NCBI GenBank assembly: GCA_043798795.1
Contig: JAZDOJ010000007.1
Coordinates: 28,259-92,258, forward strand
Reading direction: 5' to 3'
From: Candidatus Omnitrophota bacterium
GTDB lineage: Bacteria > Omnitrophota > Gorgyraeia > Gygaellales > Profunditerraquicolaceae
DNA: 64,000 bases
The notes beneath the pieces were generated by a model. That model saw only the letters and a program-made list of their open reading frames with translations. It was not told the origin of the DNA and did no database searches. Made by a program: the position numbers and the translations under genes. Positions 19,104 through 55,908 of the stretch are shown here, piece after piece. Each line of letters opens with the position of its first letter. The first letter of the stretch is position 1.

Positions 19104-21197
19104 ATGGCGAAATTAAAGGAAAAGAAAGTGGAGCACAAGAAGGTCAAGGTCGTAACGCAAAAGACCAAAAAAACGGTTGGCAATAAGCCCGTTAGACTTA
19201 AGGTTTCTTTAAAGCCCAAAGAGAAAGCCGCCCTTAAGCCTAAAAAACCCCTTTCTGTCAAACCAAAAATTGTCAGAAAAAAAGCAAAGATAGCTGCAGT
19301 TTCTCCTGCGCCTCCAATTTTGACCCAGGAGCCTCAGGTCAAGAAGGTCGTGTCGCCACCTCCACCTCCACCTCCACCTGCGCCTGAGCCGCGCGTGGCT
19401 CCCATCACAAAACCGGCTCCTCAAGAAGTCGCTGTTACCCCCGCCAAAGAGCTTGAGCTTGAATTTCCCATCACCCTAAAGGATTTAGCAGTTAAATTAC
19501 AGGAGAAGCCTTCCACATTGATAAAGATTCTTATGGATATGAGGATCATGGTAGGTATCAATCAGACCCTCGAGGAAGCCGTGGTCAGCAAGATCTGTGA
19601 AAAATATCAGTATGCGATCAAGAAGGCCCCTGACCAGGAGGAATTGGCCTTACGCCTGCATAAGGAGACGGATTCGCCTGAAAATCTAAAACCCCGCTTT
19701 CCTATTGTGACTCTTATGGGCCATGTCGATCATGGTAAAACGTCTTTATTGGACGCTATCAGGAAATCCAAGGTTGTCGATTCAGAGCATGGGGGGATCA
19801 CCCAGCATATCGGCGCTTACAAAGTGATTCTTCCTCACGGCGAGATAACGTTCCTGGACACACCTGGCCATGAGGCTTTTACGGCGATGCGCGCCCGCGG
19901 AGCCAGCATTACAGATATTGTCGTACTGGTGGTGGCTGCGGATGACGGCATGATGCCACAGACCGAGGAGGCTATTGATCATGCGCGTGCGGCTGGCGTA
20001 CCCATCATTGTGGCTGTCAATAAGATGGATAAGCCCCAGGCAGATATCGACCGCGTGAAGAAACAGCTTTCTAAGCTTGAGCTGGCAGCAGAGGACTGGG
20101 GAGGAAAAACGATCACGGTCCCAGTGTCGGCAAAGACAGGCCAGGGAATGGATGACCTCTTAGAGATGATTCTTTTGGAAGCCCAGATGTTGGAGCTTAA
20201 GGCTAATCCCGAACGCCCGGCATCTGGCGTGGTGATAGAGTCGAAAATGGCCAAAGGTAGAGGCCCCGTAGTCACTTTGCTCATTCATAGTGGTACGTTG
20301 CATCTAAATGAAAATATCATCGTCGGCACCTTTTACGGAAAAATAAGAGCCATGTTTAACGATAGAGGTCATTCCGTGACCAGCGTTGGCCCTTCTTCTC
20401 CCGTTGAGGTCCTGGGGATCTCCGGGATTCCTGCGGCCGGAGAGCCGTTTTTTGTGATTGAAGATGAAAAAGAGGCCAAGGGATTGGCTGCCGCACGCAT
20501 GGAAAAATTGAAGCTTCGCCAGATGAAATCCGTTAAAAGAGTGAGCCTTGAGGATCTCCATGCAGAAATAGAGGCCGGTAAGATTAAGGAATTGAAATTG
20601 ATCATCAAGGCAGATGTGCAAGGGTCTTTGGAGGCGATCAAGGACACCTTGAATAAAATCAATGCTTCTGAGATCAAACTCGATTTTATTCATATGGGGG
20701 TAGGCAATATCAATGCGTCGGATGCCATATTGGCTGTTGCCTCCAATGCTCTTATCCTGGGGTTCAATATCGCACAGGATGAAGGCTCCAAAGAGATCGC
20801 GGCTAAGGAAGGGCTTGACATCAGGATGTATAACATTATCTATGAGCTGGCTAATGATATCAAGGCAGCTTTGGAAGGCATGCTTGAGCCTAAGATCAAG
20901 AAGGTCTTTGTGGGCAGGGCAGAAATCAGGAAGGTGCTCAAGCTTTCAAGAGCCGGTACGGTAGCCGGCTGTTTTGTAGCGAAAGGTAAAATCAGCCGTA
21001 ACAACCTCATTCACCTGGTCAGAAACGACGAACTTGTCTTCGAGGGAAAACTATCTTCTTTAAAACGCTTCAAGGATGATGTCCGGGAGGTCAGCGAAGG
21101 TTTTGAATGCGGCTTAACCTTGGCCGGATTCGATGATGTGCATGAAGGGGACCTCGTTGAGGCGTTTGAGATAGAGAAAATAGCACGCAAGCTATGA
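19104..21197 (+). CDS. infB: Translation initiation factor IF-2
   Basis: G-domain motifs [24 protein letters not shown]; 697 aa; lysine-rich N-terminus with a poly-proline tract. Confidence 0.95.
19356..19379 (+). repeat. Hexanucleotide tandem repeat (CCACCT)x4 encoding the poly-Pro run in IF-2
   Basis: ccacctccacctccacctccacct read directly; encodes PPPPPPPP. Confidence 0.8.
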
Positions 21198-22939: not shown

Positions 22940-23960
22940 GGGCCGGACTCCACCTTTCGTTCATGAGCCTCAAGAGACAGAAGAGGATGTTGTCCTCAAT
23001 ATTTCTTTAAGGCCGAAGAGATTGTCTGAGTTTGTCGGCCATAAAGAGATTGTGGATAATCTCAAAATATCCATTCAGGCGGCGAAACAAAGGAAGGAGC
23101 CCCTGGAGCATGTGTTATTAAGCGGCCCGCCGGGCTTAGGCAAGACGTCCCTTGCCCACATTGTCGCTCATGAGATGAGCTCCAAGATTACGGCCACCTC
23201 CGGACCCGCTATAGAGCGCGCCGGTGATTTGATAGGAATTCTCACCAATCTTGAAAAAGGGGACATCCTCTTTATTGACGAGATCCATCGGCTTTCCAAA
23301 GTGGTGGAAGAGTTTCTGTATCCGGCCATGGAGAGTTTTCAGATTGATTTTGTCATTGATAAGGGGCCTTATGCCAAGACCATCAAGTTTAACCTCAAGC
23401 CTTTTTCGCTGGTGGGAGCTACGACCCGAAGCGGCCTGTTAGCAGCGCCTCTGCGGGGGCGGTTCGGCATATTTTATAACTTGGATTTTTACAAGATAGA
23501 AGACCTGGCCAAGATCATCAAGCATTCCGCTAAGATTCTGAGCATGGATATAGAAGAGGAAGCGGCTTTTGAGATCGCCAGACGCAGCCGTGGCACGCCC
23601 CGCATTGCCAATAGGCTCCTGCGCCGGATCAGGGATTACGCCCAGGTCGCCAAAATAGCCACGGTCAACGCAGGATGTGCGGCCAAGACCCTGGATGAAT
23701 TGGGGATTGACAAGGCGGGCCTGGATGATTTGGACCGTAAGGTGCTGAAGTTGATTCTGGAATCTTACTCAGGTGGGCCCGTGGGTGTTGAGGCCTTGGC
23801 AGCCAGCCTGAATGAAGAAGTCGACACCATCGCCGATACGGTCGAACCGTATTTATTGAAAGCCGGATACCTGAAGCGCACCTCCCGCGGCCGCCTGGCC
23901 ACCAAATTGTCCTTTGAACACTTCGGCCTCAAATACGAAAAACAACCGGAATTATTCTAA
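22908..23960 (+). CDS. ruvB: Holliday junction branch-migration helicase RuvB
   Basis: LRPKRLSEFVGHKEI followed by LLSGPPGLGKTSLA Walker A; AAA+ and winged-helix C-terminus. Confidence 0.95.
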   Translation: MAEETRKTLLKGRTPPFVHEPQETEEDVVLNISLRPKRLSEFVGHKEIVDNLKISIQAAKQRKEPLEHVLLSGPPGLGKTSLAHIVAHEMSSKITATSGPAIERAGDLIGILTNLEKGDILFIDEIHRLSKVVEEFLYPAMESFQIDFVIDKGPYAKTIKFNLKPFSLVGATTRSGLLAAPLRGRFGIFYNLDFYKIEDLAKIIKHSAKILSMDIEEEAAFEIARRSRGTPRIANRLLRRIRDYAQVAKIATVNAGCAAKTLDELGIDKAGLDDLDRKVLKLILESYSGGPVGVEALAASLNEEVDTIADTVEPYLLKAGYLKRTSRGRLATKLSFEHFGLKYEKQPELF

Positions 23961-24022
23961 AGCGTTTCTAAACCCAATCTCAAAACGTTTCTAATCTTAA
24001 TCGTAAAACTGCTTTTTTCCAG

Positions 24023-24565
24023 ATGAAACTTTTACTCCATACCTGTTGCGCGCCGTGCGTGATTTATCCTTTGGAGAGGCTAAAGGCGCAAGGATATAGC
24101 GTCAGGGGATATTTTTACAACCCTAATATCCATCCCTTGAGCGAATACAAAAATCGTTTGAAAGCGGTCATGGATTTCAGCCATAAGCATAATCTGGAGA
24201 TGGTCCATCCGGAATACCATCCGGAGGAATTCTTTCAAGCCGTAAATCTAAAGGAAGATAGGCCCGAAAGATGCGCCATATGCTGGTCTTTAAGACTTCA
24301 AAGGTGCGCTTTGGCCGCAAAAGAAATGGGCTGCGGTTATTTTTCTACGACTCTGCTCGTCAGTCCCTATCAGGACCAGGAGAAACTAAAAGTCATAGGA
24401 AATGACATCTCCCGTGAAACAGGAGTGGAATTTCTTTATGAAGATTTTCGGCCCGGCTTTAAGATGGCGCATGAGCAGGCTAAGAACGAAGGGATCTATT
24501 GCCAGAAATATTGCGGATGTCTTTACTCAATGAAGCCCAGACTTACGTTCACTAACGTTCCGTAA
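24023..24565 (+). CDS. queH: Epoxyqueuosine reductase QueH (DUF208)
   Basis: MKLLLHTCCAPC N-terminal Cys cluster and CxxC...CGC pattern typical of QueH. Confidence 0.8.
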   Translation: MKLLLHTCCAPCVIYPLERLKAQGYSVRGYFYNPNIHPLSEYKNRLKAVMDFSHKHNLEMVHPEYHPEEFFQAVNLKEDRPERCAICWSLRLQRCALAAKEMGCGYFSTTLLVSPYQDQEKLKVIGNDISRETGVEFLYEDFRPGFKMAHEQAKNEGIYCQKYCGCLYSMKPRLTFTNVP

Positions 24566-26048: not shown

Positions 26049-28863
<2,815 letters not shown>

Positions 28864-47706: not shown

Positions 47707-48771
47707 ATGTTTGAACAGTTACAAAAGTCAGAACAGCGCTATGGAGAATTAGAGCAGCTTTTGGCCTCATCCGACGTCATCTCTGACAAGGATAGTTACC
47801 ATAAGTTAGCTAAAGAGTTTTCGGATCTTAAAGACACGGTTTCATTCTTCAGGGAATATAAAAGGATCGCCAAGGAGATGGAGGACCTGGCAGCGGTGCT
47901 CAAAGAGAAGCACGATAAGGAGTTCGTTGATTTAGCCAAAGAAGAACTTCAGGATTTAGAAGCCCGTAAAACTCATTTAGAGGAAAGCTTGAAGGTGGCC
48001 TTGGCCGGTGAAGATCGAGATAGCGGAAGGGATGTCATCGTAGAGATAAGGCAGGGTACAGGAGGGGATGAAGCGGGATTGTTTGCGGCGGATCTTTACC
48101 GGATGTACGTTAAATATGCGGCTCATAAAGGCTGGATGGTGGAATCTATGTCTTCTAGTTCTAATGAGGCCGGCGGATTGAAAGAGGTTATTTTTAGCGT
48201 CAAAGGAAAAGAGGCGTACAGAAGGCTTAAATTTGAAAGCGGTGTCCATCGCGTGCAACGTGTGCCCGTGACAGAGGCCTCGGGCCGGATTCATACGTCT
48301 ACGGCAACCGTTGTTGTCCTGATCGAACCGGAAAAAACGGACCTGGTCATCGATGCGAAAGACCTCAAGATTGACACCTATCGGTCCAGCGGCCCCGGTG
48401 GCCAGCATATGCAGAAAACCGACTCGGCCGTCAGGATTACGCATATTCCCTCAGGCGTTGTGGTCGCTTGTCAGGATGAGCGTTCCCAGCTTAAGAATAA
48501 GCTCAAGGCCATGAGGATTCTTGGGGCCAAGCTCCTGGATATGAAAAAAGAGCAGGAATGCAGGAAATTATCTCAGGCGCGCAAGTCCCAGATCGGCACG
48601 GGTGACCGCAGTGAAAAAATCCGCACGTATAATTTTCCAGATCGCAGAGTCACCGACCACCGCATCAATTTTACCCTGCACCGGTTAGAGGCCGTCCTGG
48701 AGGGAGAGCTGGATGAATTATCGGAAGCCCTGATCAGGGCTCAAGAAGAAAAAGCAAAGGAGACAGGATAA
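47707..48771 (+). CDS. prfA: Peptide chain release factor 1
   Basis: GGQ motif (SSGPGGQHMQKT) and PxT-type recognition region. Confidence 0.95.
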   Translation: MFEQLQKSEQRYGELEQLLASSDVISDKDSYHKLAKEFSDLKDTVSFFREYKRIAKEMEDLAAVLKEKHDKEFVDLAKEELQDLEARKTHLEESLKVALAGEDRDSGRDVIVEIRQGTGGDEAGLFAADLYRMYVKYAAHKGWMVESMSSSSNEAGGLKEVIFSVKGKEAYRRLKFESGVHRVQRVPVTEASGRIHTSTATVVVLIEPEKTDLVIDAKDLKIDTYRSSGPGGQHMQKTDSAVRITHIPSGVVVACQDERSQLKNKLKAMRILGAKLLDMKKEQECRKLSQARKSQIGTGDRSEKIRTYNFPDRRVTDHRINFTLHRLEAVLEGELDELSEALIRAQEEKAKETG

Positions 48772-48775
48772 AGGC

Positions 48776-49582
48776 ATGAACGAAGCCGAACTCACTTTTA
48801 CACAGATTTTGGATTATAGTCGGTCGGACCTGTATCAAAACAGGCATTCATTTTTGGAGAAAGGTCAAGCCTCTTTGATAGCTTCCGTATTAAAAAGAAG
48901 AATTCATGGAGAACCGCTGCCGTATATTCTGAAAAAGACAGAATTCATGGGTCTGGAATTTAAAGTGAACAGGTGCGTACTTATCCCCAGGCCGGAGACG
49001 GAAATCTTGGTTGAGACGGCCCTAAAATATGTCACCACGTCACCACGTCACCACGTCACCCGCGTGAACATTTTGGATGTAGGTACAGGTTCGGGATGTA
49101 TTGCCATAAGTCTGGCTAAATTTCTACCAGATACGGATATAACAGCTACGGATATTTCAGAAAGGGCGATAGAAATCGCCAGGCAGAATGCGCTCATCCA
49201 TAATGTAGAAATCAATTTTTTATGCAGTGATTTGTTTGACAACTACGAACTACGAACTATGAACTATGAACTCATCATCTCTAATCCTCCCTACGTTCGC
49301 ACGCAAGATTTGAATTCTCTGCAGCCTGAGATTAGCTACGAGCCTCGGATCGCTTTGGATGGGGGGCAAGACGGAATGGATTTTTACCGCCGCATCATAA
49401 AGGAAGCCCCGAATCATTTAGAGAAAGAAGGCTTTTTACTCCTTGAGATCGGGTACGCTCAATTAGAACCCATAAGAATGCTATTCAAGAAGTCAGGAAG
49501 TTTAAAGATCATGGACGTTGTTAAAGACTATAATAACATCGATAGAATCATAGTAGCCAGAAAAATGAATAGACTGAGGTGA
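48776..49582 (+). CDS. prmC: Release-factor glutamine N5-methyltransferase (HemK/PrmC)
   Basis: SAM motif LDVGTGSGCIAISLA and NPPY catalytic motif; contains two in-frame tandem-repeat tracts. Confidence 0.9.
   Translation: MNEAELTFTQILDYSRSDLYQNRHSFLEKGQASLIASVLKRRIHGEPLPYILKKTEFMGLEFKVNRCVLIPRPETEILVETALKYVTTSPRHHVTRVNILDVGTGSGCIAISLAKFLPDTDITATDISERAIEIARQNALIHNVEINFLCSDLFDNYELRTMNYELIISNPPYVRTQDLNSLQPEISYEPRIALDGGQDGMDFYRRIIKEAPNHLEKEGFLLLEIGYAQLEPIRMLFKKSGSLKIMDVVKDYNNIDRIIVARKMNRLR
49031..49060 (+). repeat. 8-bp tandem repeat (GTCACCAC)x3.75 inside the prmC coding sequence (encodes VTTSPRHHVT)
   Basis: gtcaccacgtcaccacgtcaccacgtcacc read directly. Confidence 0.85.
49241..49275 (-). repeat. 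Five tandem 7-bp units inside prmC whose reverse complement reads AGTTCAT AGTTCAT AGTTCGT AGTTCGT AGTTG
   Basis: aactacgaactacgaactatgaactatgaactcat on the plus strand; same motif as the intergenic AGTTCAN repeats. Confidence 0.8.
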
Positions 49583-50854: not shown

Positions 50855-51418
50855 ATGATTCTTATGATCGATAACTACGATTCCTTCACCTTTAACCTGG
50901 TTCAGTATCTCAAGATTTTGGGCCAAGAGGTCAAGGTATTCAGAAACGATAAGATAACCCTGGAAGGCATCAGGAAGCTGGACCCTGAGAGAATCGTTAT
51001 TTCTCCCGGCCCCGGTCGTCCGGAAGGCGCAGGAATTTCCTGCGATTGCATAAGAGAATTCGCAGGGAAAATTCCTCTTTTGGGCGTATGTCTGGGCCAC
51101 CAATGTTTAGGGTTCGTTTATGGGGGGCACATTGGGTCTGCCAAAAGACTGATGCACGGAAAGATTTCGCGCATCTATCATAACGGGAAGGATATCTTTA
51201 AAGGCATCTCCAATCCCTTTGAGGCCACGCGTTACCATTCTTTGGTGGTTGAAAGAAAGGGGCTTCCGGATTGCCTGGAGATAACCGCCTGGACGCAAGA
51301 TAAAGAAATCATGGGGCTCAAGCATAAGAAATGCCCTCTCTGGGGCGTGCAATTCCATCCGGAATCCATTTTAACCAAGGCGGGTTTAAATATTTTAGCC
51401 AATTTCTTAAGAGAATGA
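50855..51418 (+). CDS. trpG: Anthranilate/aminodeoxychorismate synthase glutamine amidotransferase component II
   Basis: Class I GATase triad (GVCLGHQ ... H-x-E: WGVQFHPES); 187 aa. Confidence 0.9.
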
Positions 51419-52428
51419 TCCAACAGATCATAGAGTCGTTATCACAAGGTCAAAACTTAAGCAGCGCTTTCATGCAGTCCGTCATGGAAGAGATCATGAC
51501 CGGCAAAGTGGATACACAGGATATTGTTTCCTTTTTGACCCACTTAAGCCGTAAGGGCGAGACGGTGGAAGAGTTGACAGCCGCCGCTCTCATCATGCGC
51601 CAATACGCGACAAGCATACGTTCGTCGAAACATCAAGTGATTCTGGATACCTGCGGTACGGGCGGTGATCAGTCTGGCCTCTTTAATGTTTCTACGGCTG
51701 TTGCGTTTGTGGCTGCCGGTTGTGGCATTGCCGTGGCTAAACACGGAAATCGTTCGGTCTCCAGTTGTTGCGGCAGCGCGGATATCCTGGAAGCTTTAGG
51801 CATCGATATCCTGATGAGCAAAGAAAAAATTGAAAAGTGCTTAGATGGGATCGGCATCGCTTTTTTATTCGCTCAAAATCTGCATCCGGCCATGAAATAT
51901 GCCATGCCGGCAAGAAAACAGATTGGAAAAAGGACGATGTTTAATATCCTGGGCCCCCTGACGAACCCCGCAGGAGCCACGCACCAGTTGATCGGCGTCT
52001 TTGATAAGCGTTGGACTCAAGTGCTGGCTGAGGTGCTGGGTAACCTGGAGAGCGTTCACAGCCTTATCGTTCACAGCGAAGACGGCCTGGATGAAATAAG
52101 CACGATCGCAAAGACGCACGTTTCTGAGCAGCATAAAGGCACCATTAGAAATTACCAGCTGGACAGTGAGGCGTTCGGATTGAGAAGAGCCAGGCGGGAA
52201 GACCTGACAGGAGGAACGGTTCAGGATAATGCCAGGATATTGGTAGAGATCTTAAAGGGAGAGCCAGGTCCCAGGCGGGAGATTGTTTTATTGAATGCCG
52301 CAGCAGCTATTTACGTAGCAGATAAAGTCTCTTCCATCCAGGAGGCCCTCATACTTGCTCAAGAGTCCATTGATTCTGGTAAGGCTTATGAGAAGCTGGA
52401 ATTGATGAAGGCCTATTCTACAAGATGA
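51415..52428 (+). CDS. trpD: Anthranilate phosphoribosyltransferase
   Basis: [25 protein letters not shown] and KHGNRSVSS motifs; ATGA overlap with trpG. Confidence 0.95.
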
Positions 52429-53213
52429 AAAAGACAGATACGCTCAAAGAGATCGTTGCGAAAAAGAAGAAAAGGATCGCTTTGGCCAGGCAGCAATTTC
52501 CCGAAGAGGATTTAAAGGCTCGGTTAATGAACTTGGCGCCGACAAGGTCTCTGATGGAAGCGATCCATAAGCCCCGCACCATTTCCCTGATCGCCGAAAT
52601 AAAGAAACAGTCTCCTTCCCGTGGCACGATCCGTCAGGATTTCAACCACATGGAGATTGCCAAGGCCTATCAGGAGACAGGAGTCCAGGCTGTATCCGTC
52701 TTGACCGAAGAGGATTATTTCGCAGGAAGCCTTTCCACTATGAGCGAAGTCAGGAATCTGGTTGAGGCCCCTATCTTAAGAAAAGATTTTGTTTTGGAAC
52801 CCTATCAGATCTATGAGTCGCGTCTTTTCGGGGCCGATGCCATCCTGTTGATTGCGGACCTGTTGACCAAAGACAAGATATCAGAATTCCTGCAGATGGC
52901 CTCAGATCTGAAGATGCAGTGCCTGGTGGAGGTTCATACGGAAAAGGAGCTAAAAAAGGTTTTGAATCTGGATGTGCCGTTGATCGGCATCAATAATCGC
53001 GACCTCCATACGCTGGAAGTTGATTTTAAGACTACGGAGAGGCTTTTTCCTTTAATTCCAAAGGATAAAATCGTGGTCGTGGAAAGTGGGGTCAAGAGCT
53101 ATTCCGACGTCTTGTTTCTGAAAATCCTCGGGGTAGCAGCGGTCTTGATCGGCGAGGCCTTTATGGAGGCCCCCGATATAAAGAAAAAAATTGAAGAAGT
53201 GATGGGATGGTAG
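52425..53213 (+). CDS. trpC: Indole-3-glycerol phosphate synthase
   Basis: IAEIKKQSPSRG and LIGINNRDL motifs; 262 aa. Confidence 0.95.
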   Translation: MKKTDTLKEIVAKKKKRIALARQQFPEEDLKARLMNLAPTRSLMEAIHKPRTISLIAEIKKQSPSRGTIRQDFNHMEIAKAYQETGVQAVSVLTEEDYFAGSLSTMSEVRNLVEAPILRKDFVLEPYQIYESRLFGADAILLIADLLTKDKISEFLQMASDLKMQCLVEVHTEKELKKVLNLDVPLIGINNRDLHTLEVDFKTTERLFPLIPKDKIVVVESGVKSYSDVLFLKILGVAAVLIGEAFMEAPDIKKKIEEVMGW

Positions 53214-53226
53214 AGCCTAATTCAGA

Positions 53227-53243
53227 GTTCAGAGTAAACAAGT
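53227..53243 (+). repeat. AATTCAG AGTTCAG AGT 7-bp periodic repeat in the trpC-trpF spacer
   Basis: Read directly; same family as the repeats at 55074-55097. Confidence 0.5.
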
Positions 53244-53856
53244 GGTTAAGGTCAAGATATGCGGGATCACCAACTTAAAAGACGCCCTAGCTGCTCAAGA
53301 AGCAGGTTGCGATGCGCTCGGGTTTGTATTCTACAGGAAAAGCAAACGTTATATCTTACCCCTTAAAGCCAGGGGTATCATCAGGGTTTTGGATAAGGAC
53401 ATCCTGAAAGTCGGCGTGTTTGTAGATGCGAAAGAGAAAACAATAAAAAATATTGCGAACTCCTGTGCTCTTGATATACTACAGTTTCACGGCAAAGAAA
53501 CGCCTGCGTTCTGCCTGAAGTTTGCTGGATTCAAGGTCATAAAGGCGCTCAGGGTCAAAGATAAGATAAATCGGACTGACGTCCTAAGATATAAGACCTT
53601 CGGCTATTTGTTCGATACATACGTAAAGAAGCATCCGGGGGGCACAGGTAGGACCTTTGAGTGGAGTTTATTAAAGTTTTCTAATAAATTAAAGAAACAG
53701 GTATTCTTATCAGGTGGGTTAGACAAGGGAAACGTAAAAAAAGCCATAAGGATCGTGCGGCCAGCCTGGGTGGATGTTTCAAGTTCCGTCGAATCAAAGC
53801 CCGGCAGGAAAGACCATCAAAGGTTGCGTGCCTTTATCAAAGCTGCCAAAATATAA
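53242..53856 (+). CDS. trpF: Phosphoribosylanthranilate isomerase
   Basis: VKICGITNLKDALAAQEAGCDALGFVF N-terminus; GTG start. Confidence 0.9.
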   Translation: MVKVKICGITNLKDALAAQEAGCDALGFVFYRKSKRYILPLKARGIIRVLDKDILKVGVFVDAKEKTIKNIANSCALDILQFHGKETPAFCLKFAGFKVIKALRVKDKINRTDVLRYKTFGYLFDTYVKKHPGGTGRTFEWSLLKFSNKLKKQVFLSGGLDKGNVKKAIRIVRPAWVDVSSSVESKPGRKDHQRLRAFIKAAKI

Positions 53857-53879
53857 ATTTTTAAGTGAGGATCATTTAG

Positions 53880-55070
53880 ATGAAGAAGATGTTACCGGAT
53901 AAGAAAGGGCATTTCGGGGAATTCGGGGGCAGGTTTGTGCCGGAGACCCTCATTTATGCCCTGGATGAACTGGAGCGTGAATTCAGGAAGGCCAGGCACG
54001 ACAGAAAATTCAACCGCGAGCTGGATTATTATCTTAAGGAGTATGCGGGCCGGCCCACGCCTTTGTATTTTGCGAAGAATCTGAGTCGACTCTTGGGCGG
54101 AATAAAGGTTTATTTGAAAAGAGAGGATCTGTTGCATACGGGCGCGCACAAGATCAACAATACGCTGGGACAGGTTTTGCTGGCGCTTCGGATGAAAAAG
54201 TCACGCGTCATCGCAGAGACGGGCGCGGGGCAGCATGGCGTGGCTACGGCAACCGTGGCGGCGTTGTTTGGCTTGACGTGTGATATTTACATGGGGGAAG
54301 AAGATATAAGACGGCAGAGCCTCAATGTTTATCGTATGAAATTATTAGGTAGCCGCGTCATTCCGGTCGCAAGCGGGACAAAGACGCTCAAGGATGCCAT
54401 GACCGAGGCTTTAAGGGATTGGGTGACGAATGTGCGTAAGACCCATTATATCATAGGTTCTGTTGCAGGTCCCCATCCGTATCCGGTCATGGTGCGTGAT
54501 TTTCAGGCCGTCATCGGTCGGGAGGCAAGGTCTCAGATTCTCAAGAAAGAAAGCCGGCTCCCCGATTATCTGGTGGCATGCGTCGGCGGGGGCAGTAATG
54601 CCATGGGTTTGTTCCATCCTTTCTTTAATGATAAAAAGGTCAAAATGCTTGGTGTTGAGGCTGCGGGAACAGGGCTTGCTTCCGGCCGGCACTCCGCCAG
54701 TCTGGTTGCGGGAAGGCCGGGAGTCTTACACGGCTCAAAATCCGACCTTCTGGAAGATAGATTCGGTCAGATTAAAAACGCCTACTCGATTGCTCCAGGC
54801 CTGGATTATCCGGGCGTAGGCCCTGAGCATGCCTATTATAAAAGAATAGGCCGGGCGCGGTATGTCGCGGTTAGAGATGAAGAGGCCCTGGAAGGTTTTA
54901 AGCTTCTTTCGGAGGTAGAAGGGATTATTCCTGCCCTTGAGCCAGCGCATGCGATTTTTTATCTGAAGAAATTGAGAGGCAAAATAAATAAGAACTCCCT
55001 TATCATCGTCTGCCTTTCGGGAAGAGGGGATAAAGATACGCCTGTCGTAGCTCAGAGATTGAGATTATAA
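53880..55070 (+). CDS. trpB: Tryptophan synthase beta chain
   Basis: PLP-lysine region HTGAHKINN, and [10 protein letters not shown]. Confidence 0.95.
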
Positions 55071-55073
55071 GAG

Positions 55074-55097
55074 AGTTCATAGTTCAAAGTTCATAGT
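55074..55097 (+). repeat. AGTTCAT AGTTCAA AGTTCAT AGT: 3.4 tandem copies of a 7-bp unit in the trpB-trpA spacer
   Basis: Read directly from 55074-55097. Confidence 0.85.
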
Positions 55098-55122
55098 AAA
55101 ATCAAAATCAAGAACAAAAACA

Positions 55123-55908
55123 ATGAACAGAATTGATAAAAAGTTCAGGGAATTAAGAAGGGCGCATAAAAAAGCTTTTATTGCTTTCATCACTGCCGGA
55201 TACCCAAATTTACAAACGACCCGGAAACTTATCCTAGAATTTGCCAAAAAAGGCGTGGATATAATCGAACTGGGAGTGCCCTTTTCGGACCCCTTGGCAG
55301 ATGGCCCCATCATCCAGGAGGCCTCCCAAAAATCCCTAGAAAGAAATACACATCTTATAGACATCCTGCGCTTGGTTAAAGGCGTACGCCATTCCGTTGA
55401 TATCCCCCTTTGCCTTATGACCTACTTCAATCCCGTATTCTGTTTTGGTGAAAAAAAGTTTATTGATCAGGCGGCATCTTGCGGGGTGGATGGTTTGATT
55501 CTTCCGGACCTCACGCCCGAGGAAGGAATATCTTTCGCGCGCTACGCCCGAAAGAAGGAGTTGAATATTATCTATTTTCTTTCACCTACCAGCACACCCA
55601 AAAGAATGAAATATATATCGGGCATCTCTCGAGGCTTTATTTATTATGTTTCTTTGACGGGCGTCACCGGTGCAAGAAAGGATCTGCCAACGGACATCAT
55701 CCAAAAGATTCGCGCGATTAAAAAAATAACGGCAAAATCCGTCTGCGTGGGGTTCGGCGTATCCCGTCCGGAACAGGTCAGGCAGATTCAGAAATTCGCC
55801 GATGGTGTTATCGTCGGAAGCGCTATCATCCAGAAGATAAAGCAGCATATCCAAGACCCTCGCCTTGTCCAGAAAGTCAGCCAATTCGTCTCTTATCTTA
55901 AGTCTTAA
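55123..55908 (+). CDS. trpA: Tryptophan synthase alpha chain
   Basis: FITAGYPNL, ELGVPFSDPLADGPIIQ and GFGVS motifs. Confidence 0.95.
   Translation: MNRIDKKFRELRRAHKKAFIAFITAGYPNLQTTRKLILEFAKKGVDIIELGVPFSDPLADGPIIQEASQKSLERNTHLIDILRLVKGVRHSVDIPLCLMTYFNPVFCFGEKKFIDQAASCGVDGLILPDLTPEEGISFARYARKKELNIIYFLSPTSTPKRMKYISGISRGFIYYVSLTGVTGARKDLPTDIIQKIRAIKKITAKSVCVGFGVSRPEQVRQIQKFADGVIVGSAIIQKIKQHIQDPRLVQKVSQFVSYLKS

What the first reader, a model, noticed from the sequence alone, without database searches (positions are those of the whole stretch)
49031..49275. Two in-frame short tandem repeat tracts inside prmC: (GTCACCAC)x3.75 and a 5-unit 7-bp tract whose minus-strand reading matches the AGTTCAN family
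Housekeeping methyltransferase genes rarely carry 8-bp and 7-bp tandem arrays. The 8-mer array is 30 nt and encodes VTTSPRHHVT. The 7-mer array is 35 nt; read on the minus strand it is AGTTCAT AGTTCAT AGTTCGT AGTTCGT AGTTG, matching the intergenic AGTTCAN repeats. Both preserve the reading frame only at specific copy numbers, so slipped-strand copy-number change would switch HemK/PrmC on or off or alter a linker. This could act as a contingency locus for release-factor methylation.
Basis: seen in the sequence. Interest (0 to 1): 0.5.

Follow-up and report, generated by a model that had tools for sequence, protein, structure and literature searches.

The report
Heptamer/octamer arrays written into prmC loops
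Two short non-triplet tandem repeats sit in frame inside an intact release-factor methyltransferase gene (prmC). They belong to a phylum-wide family of ~32-nt repeat arrays that occupy the same loops of prmC and trmD in many Omnitrophota, and a one-unit slip can break the gene.

Summary
(GTCACCAC)x3.75 lies at 49031-49060 and a 7-nt array at 49241-49275. Both are in frame in an intact prmC and are far beyond chance.

The tracts are not peculiar to this genome. In 58 Omnitrophota prmC genes, the same two connector loops carry clean period-7 or period-8 arrays of about 30-35 nt in 16 genes (loop 1) and 12 genes (loop 2). Almost nowhere else in the gene does, and no outgroup does.

- The unit sequence differs between lineages but is uniform within each array, which is the pattern of concerted evolution.
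- Arrays in one locus share units far more often than arrays in different loci (P = 9e-6).
- One loop of the normally essential trmD shows the same thing, in this window too (28383-28417).
- Intergenic arrays of the same families exist (55074-55097).

A wild contig of a related species differs from its 10 sequenced counterparts by one deleted 7-nt unit, which truncates PrmC. Slippage to an OFF allele therefore happens. The tracts are short, though. Length is otherwise invariant within species, all 58 genes surveyed are ON, and trmD arrays are just as clean.

My reading: these are resident members of a dispersed, concertedly evolving heptamer/octamer array family tolerated in permissive loops. 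Frameshift liability is a by-product. A selected contingency switch is not shown. I class it as a new variant of a known kind.

The parts
48776..49582 (+). prmC (hemK), release-factor N5-glutamine methyltransferase, 268 aa, intact
   Evidence: TIGR03534 274 bits, cutoff 199. PF05175 and PF17827. 100% identical to an NCBI Omnitrophota MAG protein. It starts 5 nt after the prfA stop. Solved relatives: T. maritima HemK 1nv8/1sg9, E = 2e-38.
49031..49060 (+). Loop-1 array: (GTCACCAC)x3.75, 30 nt, exactly codons V86-T95 (VTTSPRHHVT). It covers the end of helix 73-88 and the coil before beta-1.
   Evidence: TRF score 60, 100% match. Detector score 22 against a shuffle maximum of 12. AF2 model secondary structure. 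Orthologous arrays: GTCACCAA/ATCACCAA in L081 and GTCACCAG x4 in L001.
49070..49096 (+). SAM-binding motif I, ILDVGTGSG
   Evidence: Read from the sequence. D101, G103, T104, G105 and G107 are invariant in alignment A1.
49241..49275 (+). Loop-2 array: AACTACG AACTACG AACTATG AACTATG AACTC (about 5 units; TRF calls 49241-49272). It covers codons N156-L166 (NYELRTMNYEL), the connector from beta-3 to beta-4. It is the reverse complement of the AGTTCAT family.
   Evidence: TRF score 50, 96% match. Detector score 21 against a shuffle maximum of 10. Peptide consensus NYELRTxNYEL in relatives. DNA arrays in relatives. AF2 model.
49283..49294 (+). Catalytic NPPY motif (N170-Y173), in frame downstream of both arrays
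   Evidence: Sequence. Invariant in A1. Lost in all simulated +/-1 and +/-2 unit alleles.
28383..28417 (+). Sister array in trmD (ORF 28162-28863): AAGTCAC TGGTCAG AAGTCAC CGGTCAC AAGTCA, encoding [11 protein letters not shown]. It shares a GTCAC core with prmC loop 1.
   Evidence: TRF period 14/7, score 56. The gene is TrmD (PF01746, NCBI name). The same loop is 7- or 8-periodic in many Omnitrophota TrmD.
55074..55097 (+). Intergenic array AGTTCAT AGTTCAA AGTTCAT AGT, between trpB (stop at 55070) and trpA (start at 55123). It is the same family as prmC loop 2, in the opposite orientation.
   Evidence: The middle unit carries the same TAG-to-AAG change that coding copies of this family need in order to avoid a stop.
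47707..48771 (+). prfA (RF1), the substrate of PrmC, immediately upstream
   Evidence: NF001859 484 bits.

Best explanation
The two tracts belong to a family of short (about 30-35 nt) tandem arrays with 7- or 8-nt units that is dispersed through Omnitrophota genomes.

Shown:
- The arrays occupy two structurally permissive connectors of PrmC: helix to beta-1, and beta-3 to beta-4. They also occupy one loop of TrmD and some intergenic sites.
- At each site the array is kept periodic while its unit changes between lineages.
- Arrays within one locus tend to share a unit.

Inferred:
- The arrays are homogenised by slipped-strand mispairing, together with some form of copying between arrays (ectopic conversion or re-insertion).
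- They persist in prmC because these loops accept almost any 10-11 residues.

Because 7 and 8 are not multiples of 3, the array is read in all three phases. Any single-unit slip therefore frameshifts the gene upstream of NPPY. Such an OFF allele is shown to occur in nature in a relative. This makes prmC a mutational weak point, or a low-rate reversible switch. I judge the switching to be a by-product of the arrays' presence rather than the reason for it.
For: 1. Period specificity. In 509 kb of Omnitrophota DNA a strict detector finds 28 period-7 and 6 period-8 arrays. Other periods from 4 to 12 give at most 2, apart from 8 weak period-9 hits. Shuffles give 0, and 144 kb of outgroup DNA gives 1 at each of periods 7 and 8.

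2. Site specificity. Lag-7/8 self-match of at least 0.75 is found at loop 1 in 16/58 prmC genes and at loop 2 in 12/58. Only 1/58 genes reaches it anywhere else. Control periods give 0, and 0/12 outgroup genes reach it. In a 20.8-kb stretch with about 20 genes (L085), the only period-7 arrays are the two in prmC.

3. Concerted evolution. In loop 1 the core TCACCA is invariant, while the spacer dinucleotide is CG in every copy in the window, AA in L081 and GG in L001. The loop-2 units are ACGAACT/ATGAACT, TCGAACT and ACGCAAT respectively.

4. Units shared within a locus. 9 of 28 array pairs within a locus differ by at most 1 nt, against 67 of 1350 pairs between loci (Fisher P = 8.7e-6). Examples: L054 prmC loop 1 and trmD are both perfect (ATTCGAA)n, and window 49241 matches window 55074.

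5. Discrete length. 43 of 53 period-7 arrays have 4.3-5.1 units, with a mode of 31-33 nt, in both coding and intergenic copies.

6. The same imperfect 32-nt array occurs in different contexts in different genomes: L016 prmC loop 1, L020 intergenic and L034 intergenic. The same nested GC hairpin lies inside (CAAAGTCA)n arrays in prmC loop 1 (L210) and in the trmD loop (L138).

7. Permissive loops: AF2 model and alignment to T. maritima HemK.

8. Slippage allele: L083 against L085-L094.

9. Array purity in the trmD loop (6/24) equals that in prmC.
Against: - No mechanism of homogenisation or copying between arrays was observed directly.
- With only about 4 units, in-frame (+/-3 unit) slippage cannot easily homogenise an array. 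The pattern therefore needs either passage through OFF intermediates or an unidentified copying process.
- The narrow 31-33 nt length and the core-plus-spacer design (GTCAC+2-3 nt; ATAG+3 nt) look more like a selected or machine-made element than like neutral slippage products.
- The strong preference for prmC and trmD over hundreds of neighbouring genes is not explained by loop permissiveness alone.
- The survey is centred on prmC and trmD loci and is not genome-wide.
Confidence: 0.55

Rival explanations
1. Selected contingency locus. The arrays are kept in prmC because reversible slippage turns release-factor methylation off and on. This would give population-level heterogeneity in termination efficiency.
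For: - The unit sizes are not multiples of 3, and every +/-1 or +/-2 unit change truncates PrmC before NPPY.
- A natural -1 unit allele reached consensus in one assembly of a related species.
- The arrays stay pure across lineages in which synonymous sites are probably saturated (inferred from 78% protein identity). This fits selection for mutability.
- Homogenisation of arrays with about 4 units is easiest if OFF intermediates are viable.
Against: - The tracts are short (3.75-4.6 units).
- Ten contigs of the one species sampled from different samples carry identical arrays, though these contigs were retrieved by exact identity to the ON protein.
- Cluster members at >90% identity have invariant length in 20 clusters.
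- 58/58 representative genes are ON.
- Equally pure arrays sit in trmD, which is essential in the bacteria studied (established knowledge), and in intergenic DNA.
- PrmC is not a surface or restriction-modification function typical of contingency genes.
Confidence: 0.15
2. Mobile in-frame mini-element. The roughly 32-nt arrays, and the small GC hairpins nested in them, are selfish DNA actively inserted or copied by dedicated machinery. This would be analogous to Rickettsia palindromic elements or REPINs, with prmC and trmD loops as tolerated or preferred targets.
For: - Near-identical imperfect arrays occur at unrelated sites in different genomes (L016, L020, L034).
- The same family occurs in either orientation at prmC loop 1 (L016 against L208).
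- Perfect identical-unit arrays occur in two genes of one genome (L054).
- Intergenic arrays often form inverted doublets that make hairpins: L005, L034, L131, L144, L159.
- A nested hairpin is shared by prmC and trmD arrays.
- The array length is discrete.
Against: - Loop 2 shows no length gain relative to T. maritima HemK.
- The occupied sites are orthologous across the phylum rather than scattered.
- No target-site duplication, terminal repeat or associated transposase was identified.
- The arrays are far smaller than any known autonomous or non-autonomous mobile element.
Confidence: 0.2
3. Cis-acting nucleic-acid signal. The arrays are about five evenly spaced core motifs (GTCAC, or (A)TAG) read by a periodic RNA- or DNA-binding factor, or they pair with each other (loop 1 with loop 2). 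Either way they would regulate expression of translation-modifying enzymes.
For: - The core-plus-spacer pattern, with invariant cores and spacers that drift.
- A preferred count of about 5 cores.
- Units shared within a locus.
- In the AGTTCAT clade, loop 1 and loop 2 are near reverse complements (L085, L006, L023).
- The hosts seen so far are PrmC, TrmD, Tgt and a deaminase.
Against: - In the window, loop 1 and loop 2 are not complementary, and the region folds no better than shuffles (z = +0.85).
- There is no Rfam match.
- Units differ widely between lineages, so any reader would have to co-evolve.
- L025 has direct rather than inverted arrays.
- The sampling of host genes is biased by how the loci were chosen.
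Confidence: 0.12
4. Protein-level selection. The loop peptides (for example NYELRTxNYEL and KSQVTSHKSQV) are what is conserved, and the DNA periodicity is incidental.
For: The peptide NYELRTxNYEL recurs in many PrmC homologues at 55-78% identity. Lys/Ser-rich TrmD loops could plausibly contact tRNA.
Against: - Orthologous loops encode unrelated peptides in other lineages, yet remain 7- or 8-periodic at the DNA level.
- Periodicity holds at codon third positions.
- Identical arrays occur in non-coding DNA.
- A 7-aa peptide period is exactly what translation of a 7-nt array produces.
Confidence: 0.03

Closest known systems
Dispersed heptameric SSRs: (GGGAATC)n in Xanthomonas, (GGGGAYT)n in Nostoc/Anabaena, and the STRR heptamers of Calothrix (PMC4692102)
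   Same: Tandem 7-nt units. Many dispersed copies with a genome-specific unit. A clear preference for about four units: 43 of 53 arrays here have 4.3-5.1 units. They often lie close to ORF ends. Their function is unresolved.
   Different: [quoted passage not shown] The Omnitrophota arrays are not G-rich and include 8-mers. They sit in frame in conserved loops of housekeeping genes across a phylum, with unit turnover.
Heptanucleotide phase variation of neuO in E. coli K1 (PMC13001214; the copy-number rule is from my own knowledge)
   Same: A 7-nt repeat inside a coding region. The protein is made only when the copy number keeps the frame (multiples of 3). Slippage gives ON/OFF.
   Different: From memory, the neuO tract is long (tens of units), lies at the 5' end, is highly polymorphic between isolates, and controls a surface modification. 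The prmC tracts have about 4 units, lie mid-gene, are nearly invariant within species, and sit in a core translation gene.
Rickettsia palindromic elements: selfish DNA inserted in frame into unrelated genes (review PMC10969869)
   Same: Repeated DNA that lives inside housekeeping ORFs at positions compatible with the protein fold. The same element family occurs at unrelated loci.
   Different: RPEs are palindromes of about 150 bp that lengthen the host protein and are scattered among many genes. The arrays here are about 32 nt, tandem rather than palindromic, replace loop sequence rather than add to it, and occupy orthologous sites.
REPINs: REP doublets forming hairpins (PMC3116915)
   Same: Intergenic Omnitrophota arrays frequently occur as inverted doublets that would form hairpins (L005, L034, L131, L144). 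Families are specific to a genome.
   Different: No RAYT transposase was identified. The units are tandem heptamers rather than about 20-nt REP palindromes. REPINs are extragenic.

Membership tests
PrmC/HemK release-factor N5-glutamine methyltransferase | Scores above the curated cutoff of the equivalog model | tested here: met
   TIGR03534 274.1 bits against 199.1.
PrmC/HemK release-factor N5-glutamine methyltransferase | SAM-binding motif I (GxGxG) and catalytic NPPY in one frame | tested here: met
   ILDVGTGSG at 49070-49096 and NPPY at 49283-49294.
PrmC/HemK release-factor N5-glutamine methyltransferase | Genomic linkage to prfA | tested here: met
   prfA 47707-48771 ends 5 nt upstream. 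Same order in L081 and L085.
SSR-driven phase-variable contingency locus | Non-triplet repeat inside the ORF, so that a unit change shifts the frame | tested here: met
   Simulated +/-1 and +/-2 unit alleles give 91-166 aa products. +/-3 units keep the frame.
SSR-driven phase-variable contingency locus | Tract-length polymorphism among closely related strains or reads | tested here: inconclusive
   One -1 unit allele (L083) against 10 identical contigs in a related species. The 10 were retrieved by exact identity to the ON protein, so the count is biased towards that allele. No in-frame variants in 20 PrmC clusters. No second contig exists for the window's own species. Reads are not available.
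SSR-driven phase-variable contingency locus | ON and OFF alleles both common among genomes | tested here: not met
   58/58 Omnitrophota prmC genes have motif I and NPPY in one frame.
SSR-driven phase-variable contingency locus | Long tract giving a high slippage rate; gene for a surface, restriction-modification or similar niche function | tested here: not met
   3.75 and 4.6 units. The gene is a core translation-factor modifier. Sister arrays lie in trmD.
Dispersed heptameric SSR family (STRR / GGGAATC type) | Tandem 7-nt unit with a preferred copy number near four | tested here: met
   43 of 53 arrays have 4.3-5.1 units. Loop 2 has 4.6 units. Loop 1 is the 8-nt variant with 3.75 units.
Dispersed heptameric SSR family (STRR / GGGAATC type) | Many copies per genome sharing a genome-specific unit | tested here: inconclusive
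   Units are shared within loci (P = 8.7e-6), and the 64-kb window holds four arrays. No whole genome could be censused.
Dispersed heptameric SSR family (STRR / GGGAATC type) | Predominantly intergenic; G-rich with G-quadruplex potential | tested here: not met
   The tracts are inside an ORF and have no G runs. PMC4692102 reports under-representation of such repeats in ORFs.
In-frame selfish repeat (RPE-like) or MITE | Insertion that lengthens the host protein relative to orthologues lacking it | tested here: not met
   Loop 2 has the same length as T. maritima HemK, and loop 1 is about 5 aa longer.
In-frame selfish repeat (RPE-like) or MITE | The same element at unrelated loci | tested here: met
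   L016 loop 1 against L020 and L034 intergenic copies. L054 prmC against L054 trmD. The nested hairpin in L210 prmC against L138 trmD.
In-frame selfish repeat (RPE-like) or MITE | Terminal inverted repeats, target-site duplication, cognate transposase | not tested
   None were looked for systematically, and none are evident in the flanks inspected.

The most novel reading that the evidence does not exclude
Omnitrophota carry a previously undescribed class of discrete elements of about 32 nt, built from some five copies of a core-plus-spacer heptamer or octamer, sometimes with nested mini-hairpins. These elements would be actively copied or rewritten within a genome. They would have lived in frame, since early in the phylum's history, inside enzymes that tune translational fidelity: PrmC for termination and TrmD for frame maintenance, perhaps also Tgt. 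On this reading they are either a new kind of in-frame mobile DNA or a periodic cis-code read by a co-evolving factor. Single-unit slips would provide a built-in frameshift switch for those enzymes.
Probability: 0.3. Interest if true: 0.8.

Novelty: new variant of a known kind. Interest (0 to 1): 0.6.

Why it matters
Non-triplet tandem repeats are normally purged from the middle of core genes. Here they persist at the same loops of prmC and trmD across a whole phylum. Their units turn over and stay uniform within each array.

This gives a tractable natural system for an old open question: what makes and maintains dispersed heptamer repeats in bacteria. They have been known since the cyanobacterial STRRs, and a 2015 study could still find no detailed literature on them (PMC4692102).

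It also shows that release-factor methylation can be knocked out by a single slippage event in wild populations of ultra-small, uncultivated bacteria.

For annotation, these arrays explain odd 7-aa-periodic loop peptides and some split or "frameshifted" prmC calls in metagenome assemblies.

Tried and rejected
- **RNA structure or loop 1-loop 2 pairing in the window.** Folding 49015-49290 gives z = +0.85, and the arrays stay unpaired. Rejected for this genome.
- **Known RNA families.** No Rfam match anywhere in the window.
- **Phage link.** Scanning viral contigs for AACTAYG x2.7 gave 35 hits of mixed GC content, none of them in prmC. Uninformative.
- **Frameshifted trmD alleles.** Short TrmD cluster members (P0271, P0275, P0285, P0286) are not broken at the loop array.
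- **L084.** Its apparent prmC fragment is caused by an N-gap in the scaffold. Uninformative.
- **In-frame (+/-3 unit) polymorphism.** Not seen in 20 PrmC and 10 TrmD clusters. Length differences trace to start-codon calls or C-terminal tails.
- **Literature.** Searches for Omnitrophota combined with tandem, heptamer or phase variation found nothing on this subject.
- **P0259 DNA.** Could not be fetched because the sample file is too large.
- **Protein-level explanation of the periodicity.** Rejected because unit sequences differ between lineages and identical arrays are non-coding elsewhere.
Full report
**What is there**

The window comes from a Candidatus Omnitrophota metagenome-assembled genome. 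The product of ORF 48776-49582 is 100% identical to an NCBI Omnitrophota MAG protein carried on a 105,792-nt contig.

The ORF is prmC. It matches TIGR03534 at 274 bits against a cutoff of 199. It has the MTS and PrmC_N domains. It starts 5 nt after prfA and is followed by murA.

Tandem Repeats Finder reports two arrays:
- (GTCACCAC)x3.8 at 49031-49060, 100% match, score 60.
- (AACTACG)x4.6 at 49241-49272, 96% match, score 50.

The first array covers exactly codons V86-T95. The second covers N156-L166. Motif I (49070-49096) and NPPY (49283-49294) are in frame.

With a strict periodicity detector the tracts score 22 and 21. The maxima over 100 dinucleotide shuffles were 12 and 10.

It matches the array at 55074-55097 between trpB and trpA.

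Simulated changes of +/-1 or +/-2 units truncate the product at 91-166 aa, before NPPY. Changes of +/-3 units keep the frame.

**The tracts are not an oddity of this genome**

Aligning the closest 26 PrmC homologues (all 56-78% identical) shows that the peptide of the 7-mer tract, NYELRTxNYEL, recurs widely. Loop 1 of many relatives reads VHSSKFxVHS, which is the translation of (AGTTCAN)n.

The DNA of 57 Omnitrophota prmC loci from species-representative genomes shows the same thing at both loops. Loop 1 lies just before ILDxGTGSG. Loop 2 lies between DLF and YELIxSNPPY. Both are written as period-7 or period-8 arrays of about 30-36 nt, but the units differ by lineage:

| Locus | Loop 1 unit | Loop 2 unit |
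|---|---|---|
| L001 | GTCACCAG x4 | TACGCAA x4.6 |
| L002 | GCAAGTTC | GCGATAT |
| L006 | ATAGTTC | AACTACC |
| L023 | ATAGGTT | its reverse complement |
| L025 | GGTCTAC | GGTCTAC |
| L031 | AGAGAAC | GCGCTAT |
| L054 | ATTCGAA x5.1 | none detected |
| L055 | GTGTCAT | ACCTAAA |
| L071 | AGTTAGCC x4.5 | TTACGAG |

Quantitatively, a 30-nt window with lag-7/8 self-match of at least 0.75 occurs as follows:
- at loop 1 in 16/58 genes,
- at loop 2 in 12/58 genes,
- anywhere else in the gene in only 1/58 genes,
- never at these loops for control periods (4/5, 6/9, 10/11),
- in 0/12 outgroup prmC genes.

Across 509 kb of Omnitrophota DNA the strict detector finds 28 period-7 and 6 period-8 arrays. 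Other periods give essentially none, shuffles give none, and 144 kb of outgroup DNA gives one at each of periods 7 and 8.

In a 20.8-kb stretch of one relative (L085, about 20 genes), the only period-7 arrays are the two in prmC.

**Concerted evolution**

The closest relative with DNA is L081 (PrmC 78% identical). Its loop 1 reads GTCACCAA ATCACCAA ATCACCAA ATCACC, where the window has GTCACCAC x3.75 and L001 has GTCACCAG x4.

In the three-way alignment the core TCACCA is invariant. The two-base spacer is CG in every copy in the window, AA in L081 and GG in L001. The total tract length is unchanged between the window and L081.

Loop 2 behaves the same way: ACGAACT/ATGAACT in the window, TCGAACT in L081, and ACGCAAT in L001.

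At this divergence independent decay would have scrambled the copies. Instead, each lineage's substitutions are present in all of its copies.

**The same phenomenon in trmD and in intergenic DNA**

The window's trmD (28162-28863) carries AAGTCAC TGGTCAG AAGTCAC CGGTCAC AAGTCA at 28383-28417, in the loop between PIFxAV and ILLCPQG.

Among 120 Omnitrophota TrmD proteins (72-88% identical), this loop typically reads as a peptide with a 7- or 8-aa period:
- KSQVTSHKSQV, which is (AAGTCAC)n.
- KSKVKSQKSKV, which is (AAGTCAA)n.
- RSQGHKVTRSQV, from an 8-mer.
- RSPRHHVTKSHV, the same GTCACCAC-type unit as the window's prmC loop 1.

DNA from metagenome loci confirms this. By the same 0.75 criterion, 6/24 trmD loops are clean at lag 7/8 and 0/24 at control periods. 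TrmD is essential in the bacteria studied (established knowledge), yet its arrays are as clean as those in prmC.

Arrays in the same locus share units far more often than arrays in different loci: 9/28 pairs against 67/1350 pairs within one mismatch (Fisher P = 8.7e-6). Examples:
- L054 has perfect (ATTCGAA)n in both prmC loop 1 and trmD.
- Window 49241 matches window 55074.
- L005 loop 1 matches an intergenic array in the same locus.

Intergenic arrays often come as inverted doublets that would form hairpins (L005, L034, L131, L144, L159).

Array length is sharply peaked. 43 of 53 period-7 arrays have 4.3-5.1 units, with a mode of 31-33 nt. This holds although perfect arrays as short as 20 nt would have passed the threshold.

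Some arrays are near-identical, imperfections included, in different genomes and different contexts:
- L016 prmC loop 1: ATAGCGCATAGCGCAGAGCGTATAGCGGATAG.
- L020 intergenic: ATAGCGCATAGCGTAGAGCGTATAGCGGATAG.
- L034 intergenic: a similar copy.

A small GC hairpin (GTGCGCA..AGCCTCCCC-GRA-GGGGR) is nested inside (CAAAGTCA)n arrays both in prmC loop 1 (L210) and in the trmD loop (L138).

Other hosts of in-frame arrays in the sample are Tgt and a deaminase fusion. The loci were chosen around prmC and trmD, so this host list is biased.

**Units that contain a stop**

Because 7 and 3 share no factor, three units are read in all three phases. A unit such as AGTTCAT, which contains TAG, must therefore be altered in every third copy. 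Coding copies read ATAGTTC ATAGTTC A(A/G)A(G/A)TTC ATAGTTC ATAGT.

The window's intergenic copy at 55074 carries the same TAG-to-AAG change. In the window's loop 2, the in-frame TGA of (ATGAACT)n is avoided by CGA.

**Protein context**

- An AlphaFold model (mean pLDDT 74) places loop 1 at the end of helix 73-88 plus the coil before beta-1 (97-103).
- It places loop 2 in the connector from beta-3 (147-150) through a short helix (157-160) to beta-4 (164-170).
- Against the solved T. maritima HemK (1nv8/1sg9, E = 2e-38), loop 2 has the same length and loop 1 is about 5 residues longer.
- The arrays therefore overwrite existing connectors rather than insert new ones.

**Does slippage happen?**

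In the species of P0018 (PrmC 62% identical to the window's), ten contigs from different samples carry loop 2 as a perfect (AACTACG)x4.7. These ten were retrieved by exact identity to the ON protein, so the sample is biased towards that allele.

Contig L083 is identical to L085 over 2,801 nt, with 0 mismatches and a single gap. The gap is the loss of exactly one AACTACG unit. It gives FSNYELRTTN-stop, and the gene caller split the gene into 134-aa and 75-aa pieces. In a k=141 assembly this allele must have been present in the reads and abundant in that sample.

Apart from this, members of 20 PrmC clusters at >90% identity are constant in length. No trmD fragment is broken at its array. The window's own species has no second contig.

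**Interpretation**

The best-supported reading is that these tracts are resident members of a dispersed heptamer/octamer array family. The family evolves in concert and is tolerated in two permissive connectors of PrmC. Frameshift liability is a consequence.

The contingency-locus idea is mechanistically possible and has one natural example. It lacks the expected polymorphism, tract length and ON/OFF mixture, and it does not explain the equally clean arrays in trmD and in intergenic DNA.

Several features are not explained by slippage alone, so I keep the mobile mini-element and periodic binding-site readings open:
- the discrete length,
- the core-plus-spacer design,
- the sharing of units within loci,
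- the orientation flips,
- the nested hairpins.

An RNA-structure role is not supported in this window (z = +0.85; no Rfam hit).

**Comparison with what is known**

- **Dispersed heptamers.** Arrays with genome-specific units and a preference for four units are described for Xanthomonas and Nostoc. There they are G-rich, form quadruplexes and are under-represented in ORFs. The same paper notes that heptamers are over-represented among bacterial SSRs yet little studied (PMC4692102).
- **In-frame selfish DNA.** This is known from Rickettsia palindromic elements (PMC10969869).
- **Hairpin doublets.** These are known as REPINs (PMC3116915).
- **Heptanucleotide ON/OFF switching.** This is known for neuO (PMC13001214).

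None of these combines non-G-rich 7- or 8-nt arrays, in-frame residence at orthologous loops of core translation-modifying enzymes across a phylum, and lineage-wise unit turnover. Searches found nothing on this in Omnitrophota.

I therefore class it as a new variant of a known kind, of moderate to high interest.

Noticed in passing
window 28383-28417 (trmD, ORF 28162-28863): An in-frame period-7/14 array with a GTCAC core, in the TrmD loop between PIFNAV and ILLCPQG. The same loop is 7- or 8-periodic in many Omnitrophota TrmD.
   Followed up: yes
window 55074-55097: An AGTTCAT-family array directly after the trpB stop and 26 nt before the trpA start. It is open and in frame with trpA, and it carries the stop-avoiding TAG-to-AAG change typical of coding copies although no start codon precedes it.
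   Followed up: partly
window 1-64000: All substantial ORFs lie on the + strand. Minus-strand ORFs are short shadows of them. The order prfA-prmC-murA is followed directly by a trp operon (trpG/D/C/F/B/A, about 50855-55908).
   Followed up: no
window 23952-24009: An intergenic 23-nt repeat x2.5 (TTAATCTAAAACGTTTCTAAAC), TRF score 63, between ORFs ending at 23960 and starting at 24023.
   Followed up: no
window 19356-19379: A perfect (CCACCT)x4 hexamer repeat inside ORF 19104-21197. The unit is a multiple of 3, so it is an ordinary in-frame repeat.
   Followed up: no
L210 845-905 (PrmC loop 1) and L138 2340-2430 (TrmD loop): The same small GC-rich hairpin (GTGCGCA..AGCCTCCCC-GRA-GGGGR) is nested between CAAAGTCA units in two different genes of two different genomes. 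L138 has two tandem copies. Protein P0259 shows it too.
   Followed up: partly
L005 940-1049 and 3141-3272; L034 1541-1620; L131 11068-11160; L144 5897-6002; L159 3931-4004: Intergenic heptamer or octamer arrays arranged as inverted doublets that would fold into hairpins with stems of about 30 bp or longer (REPIN-like). The GTAACTA/TAGTTAC doublet downstream of trmD is conserved between L131 and L144.
   Followed up: partly
P0003-P0006 C-termini; L081 735-810: Several PrmC homologues have C-terminal tails (IPNPKxQIPNK...). These appear to be read-through into downstream (AAATCCC/CCAAATC)n heptamer arrays, though only the protein sequences were examined. L081 has an 11-unit array of that unit in an intergenic region upstream.
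   Followed up: no
L084 2850-2950: A scaffold of a related species has an N-gap replacing most of prmC. Assembly may have broken at the arrays.
   Followed up: no
L085 1-2076: The CODH/ACS subunit gene (CdhC) in a related Omnitrophota contig carries an intein with a LAGLIDADG endonuclease domain.
   Followed up: no
L144 4195-4225; L168 5804-5835; L157 622-654: Further in-frame heptamer arrays: in Tgt (CAGTTGT x4.4), in a deaminase-AAA fusion (AACTATC x4.6), and at a second site in TrmD (AAATTGG x4.7).
   Followed up: partly
L159, L164, L181 (GC 0.61-0.66): Period-7 and period-8 arrays, including perfect (AAATTCG)x4.4 and inverted GTGGCGAA doublets, also occur in high-GC contigs whose TrmD is only 57-59% identical. 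The phenomenon may extend beyond low-GC Omnitrophota.
   Followed up: no
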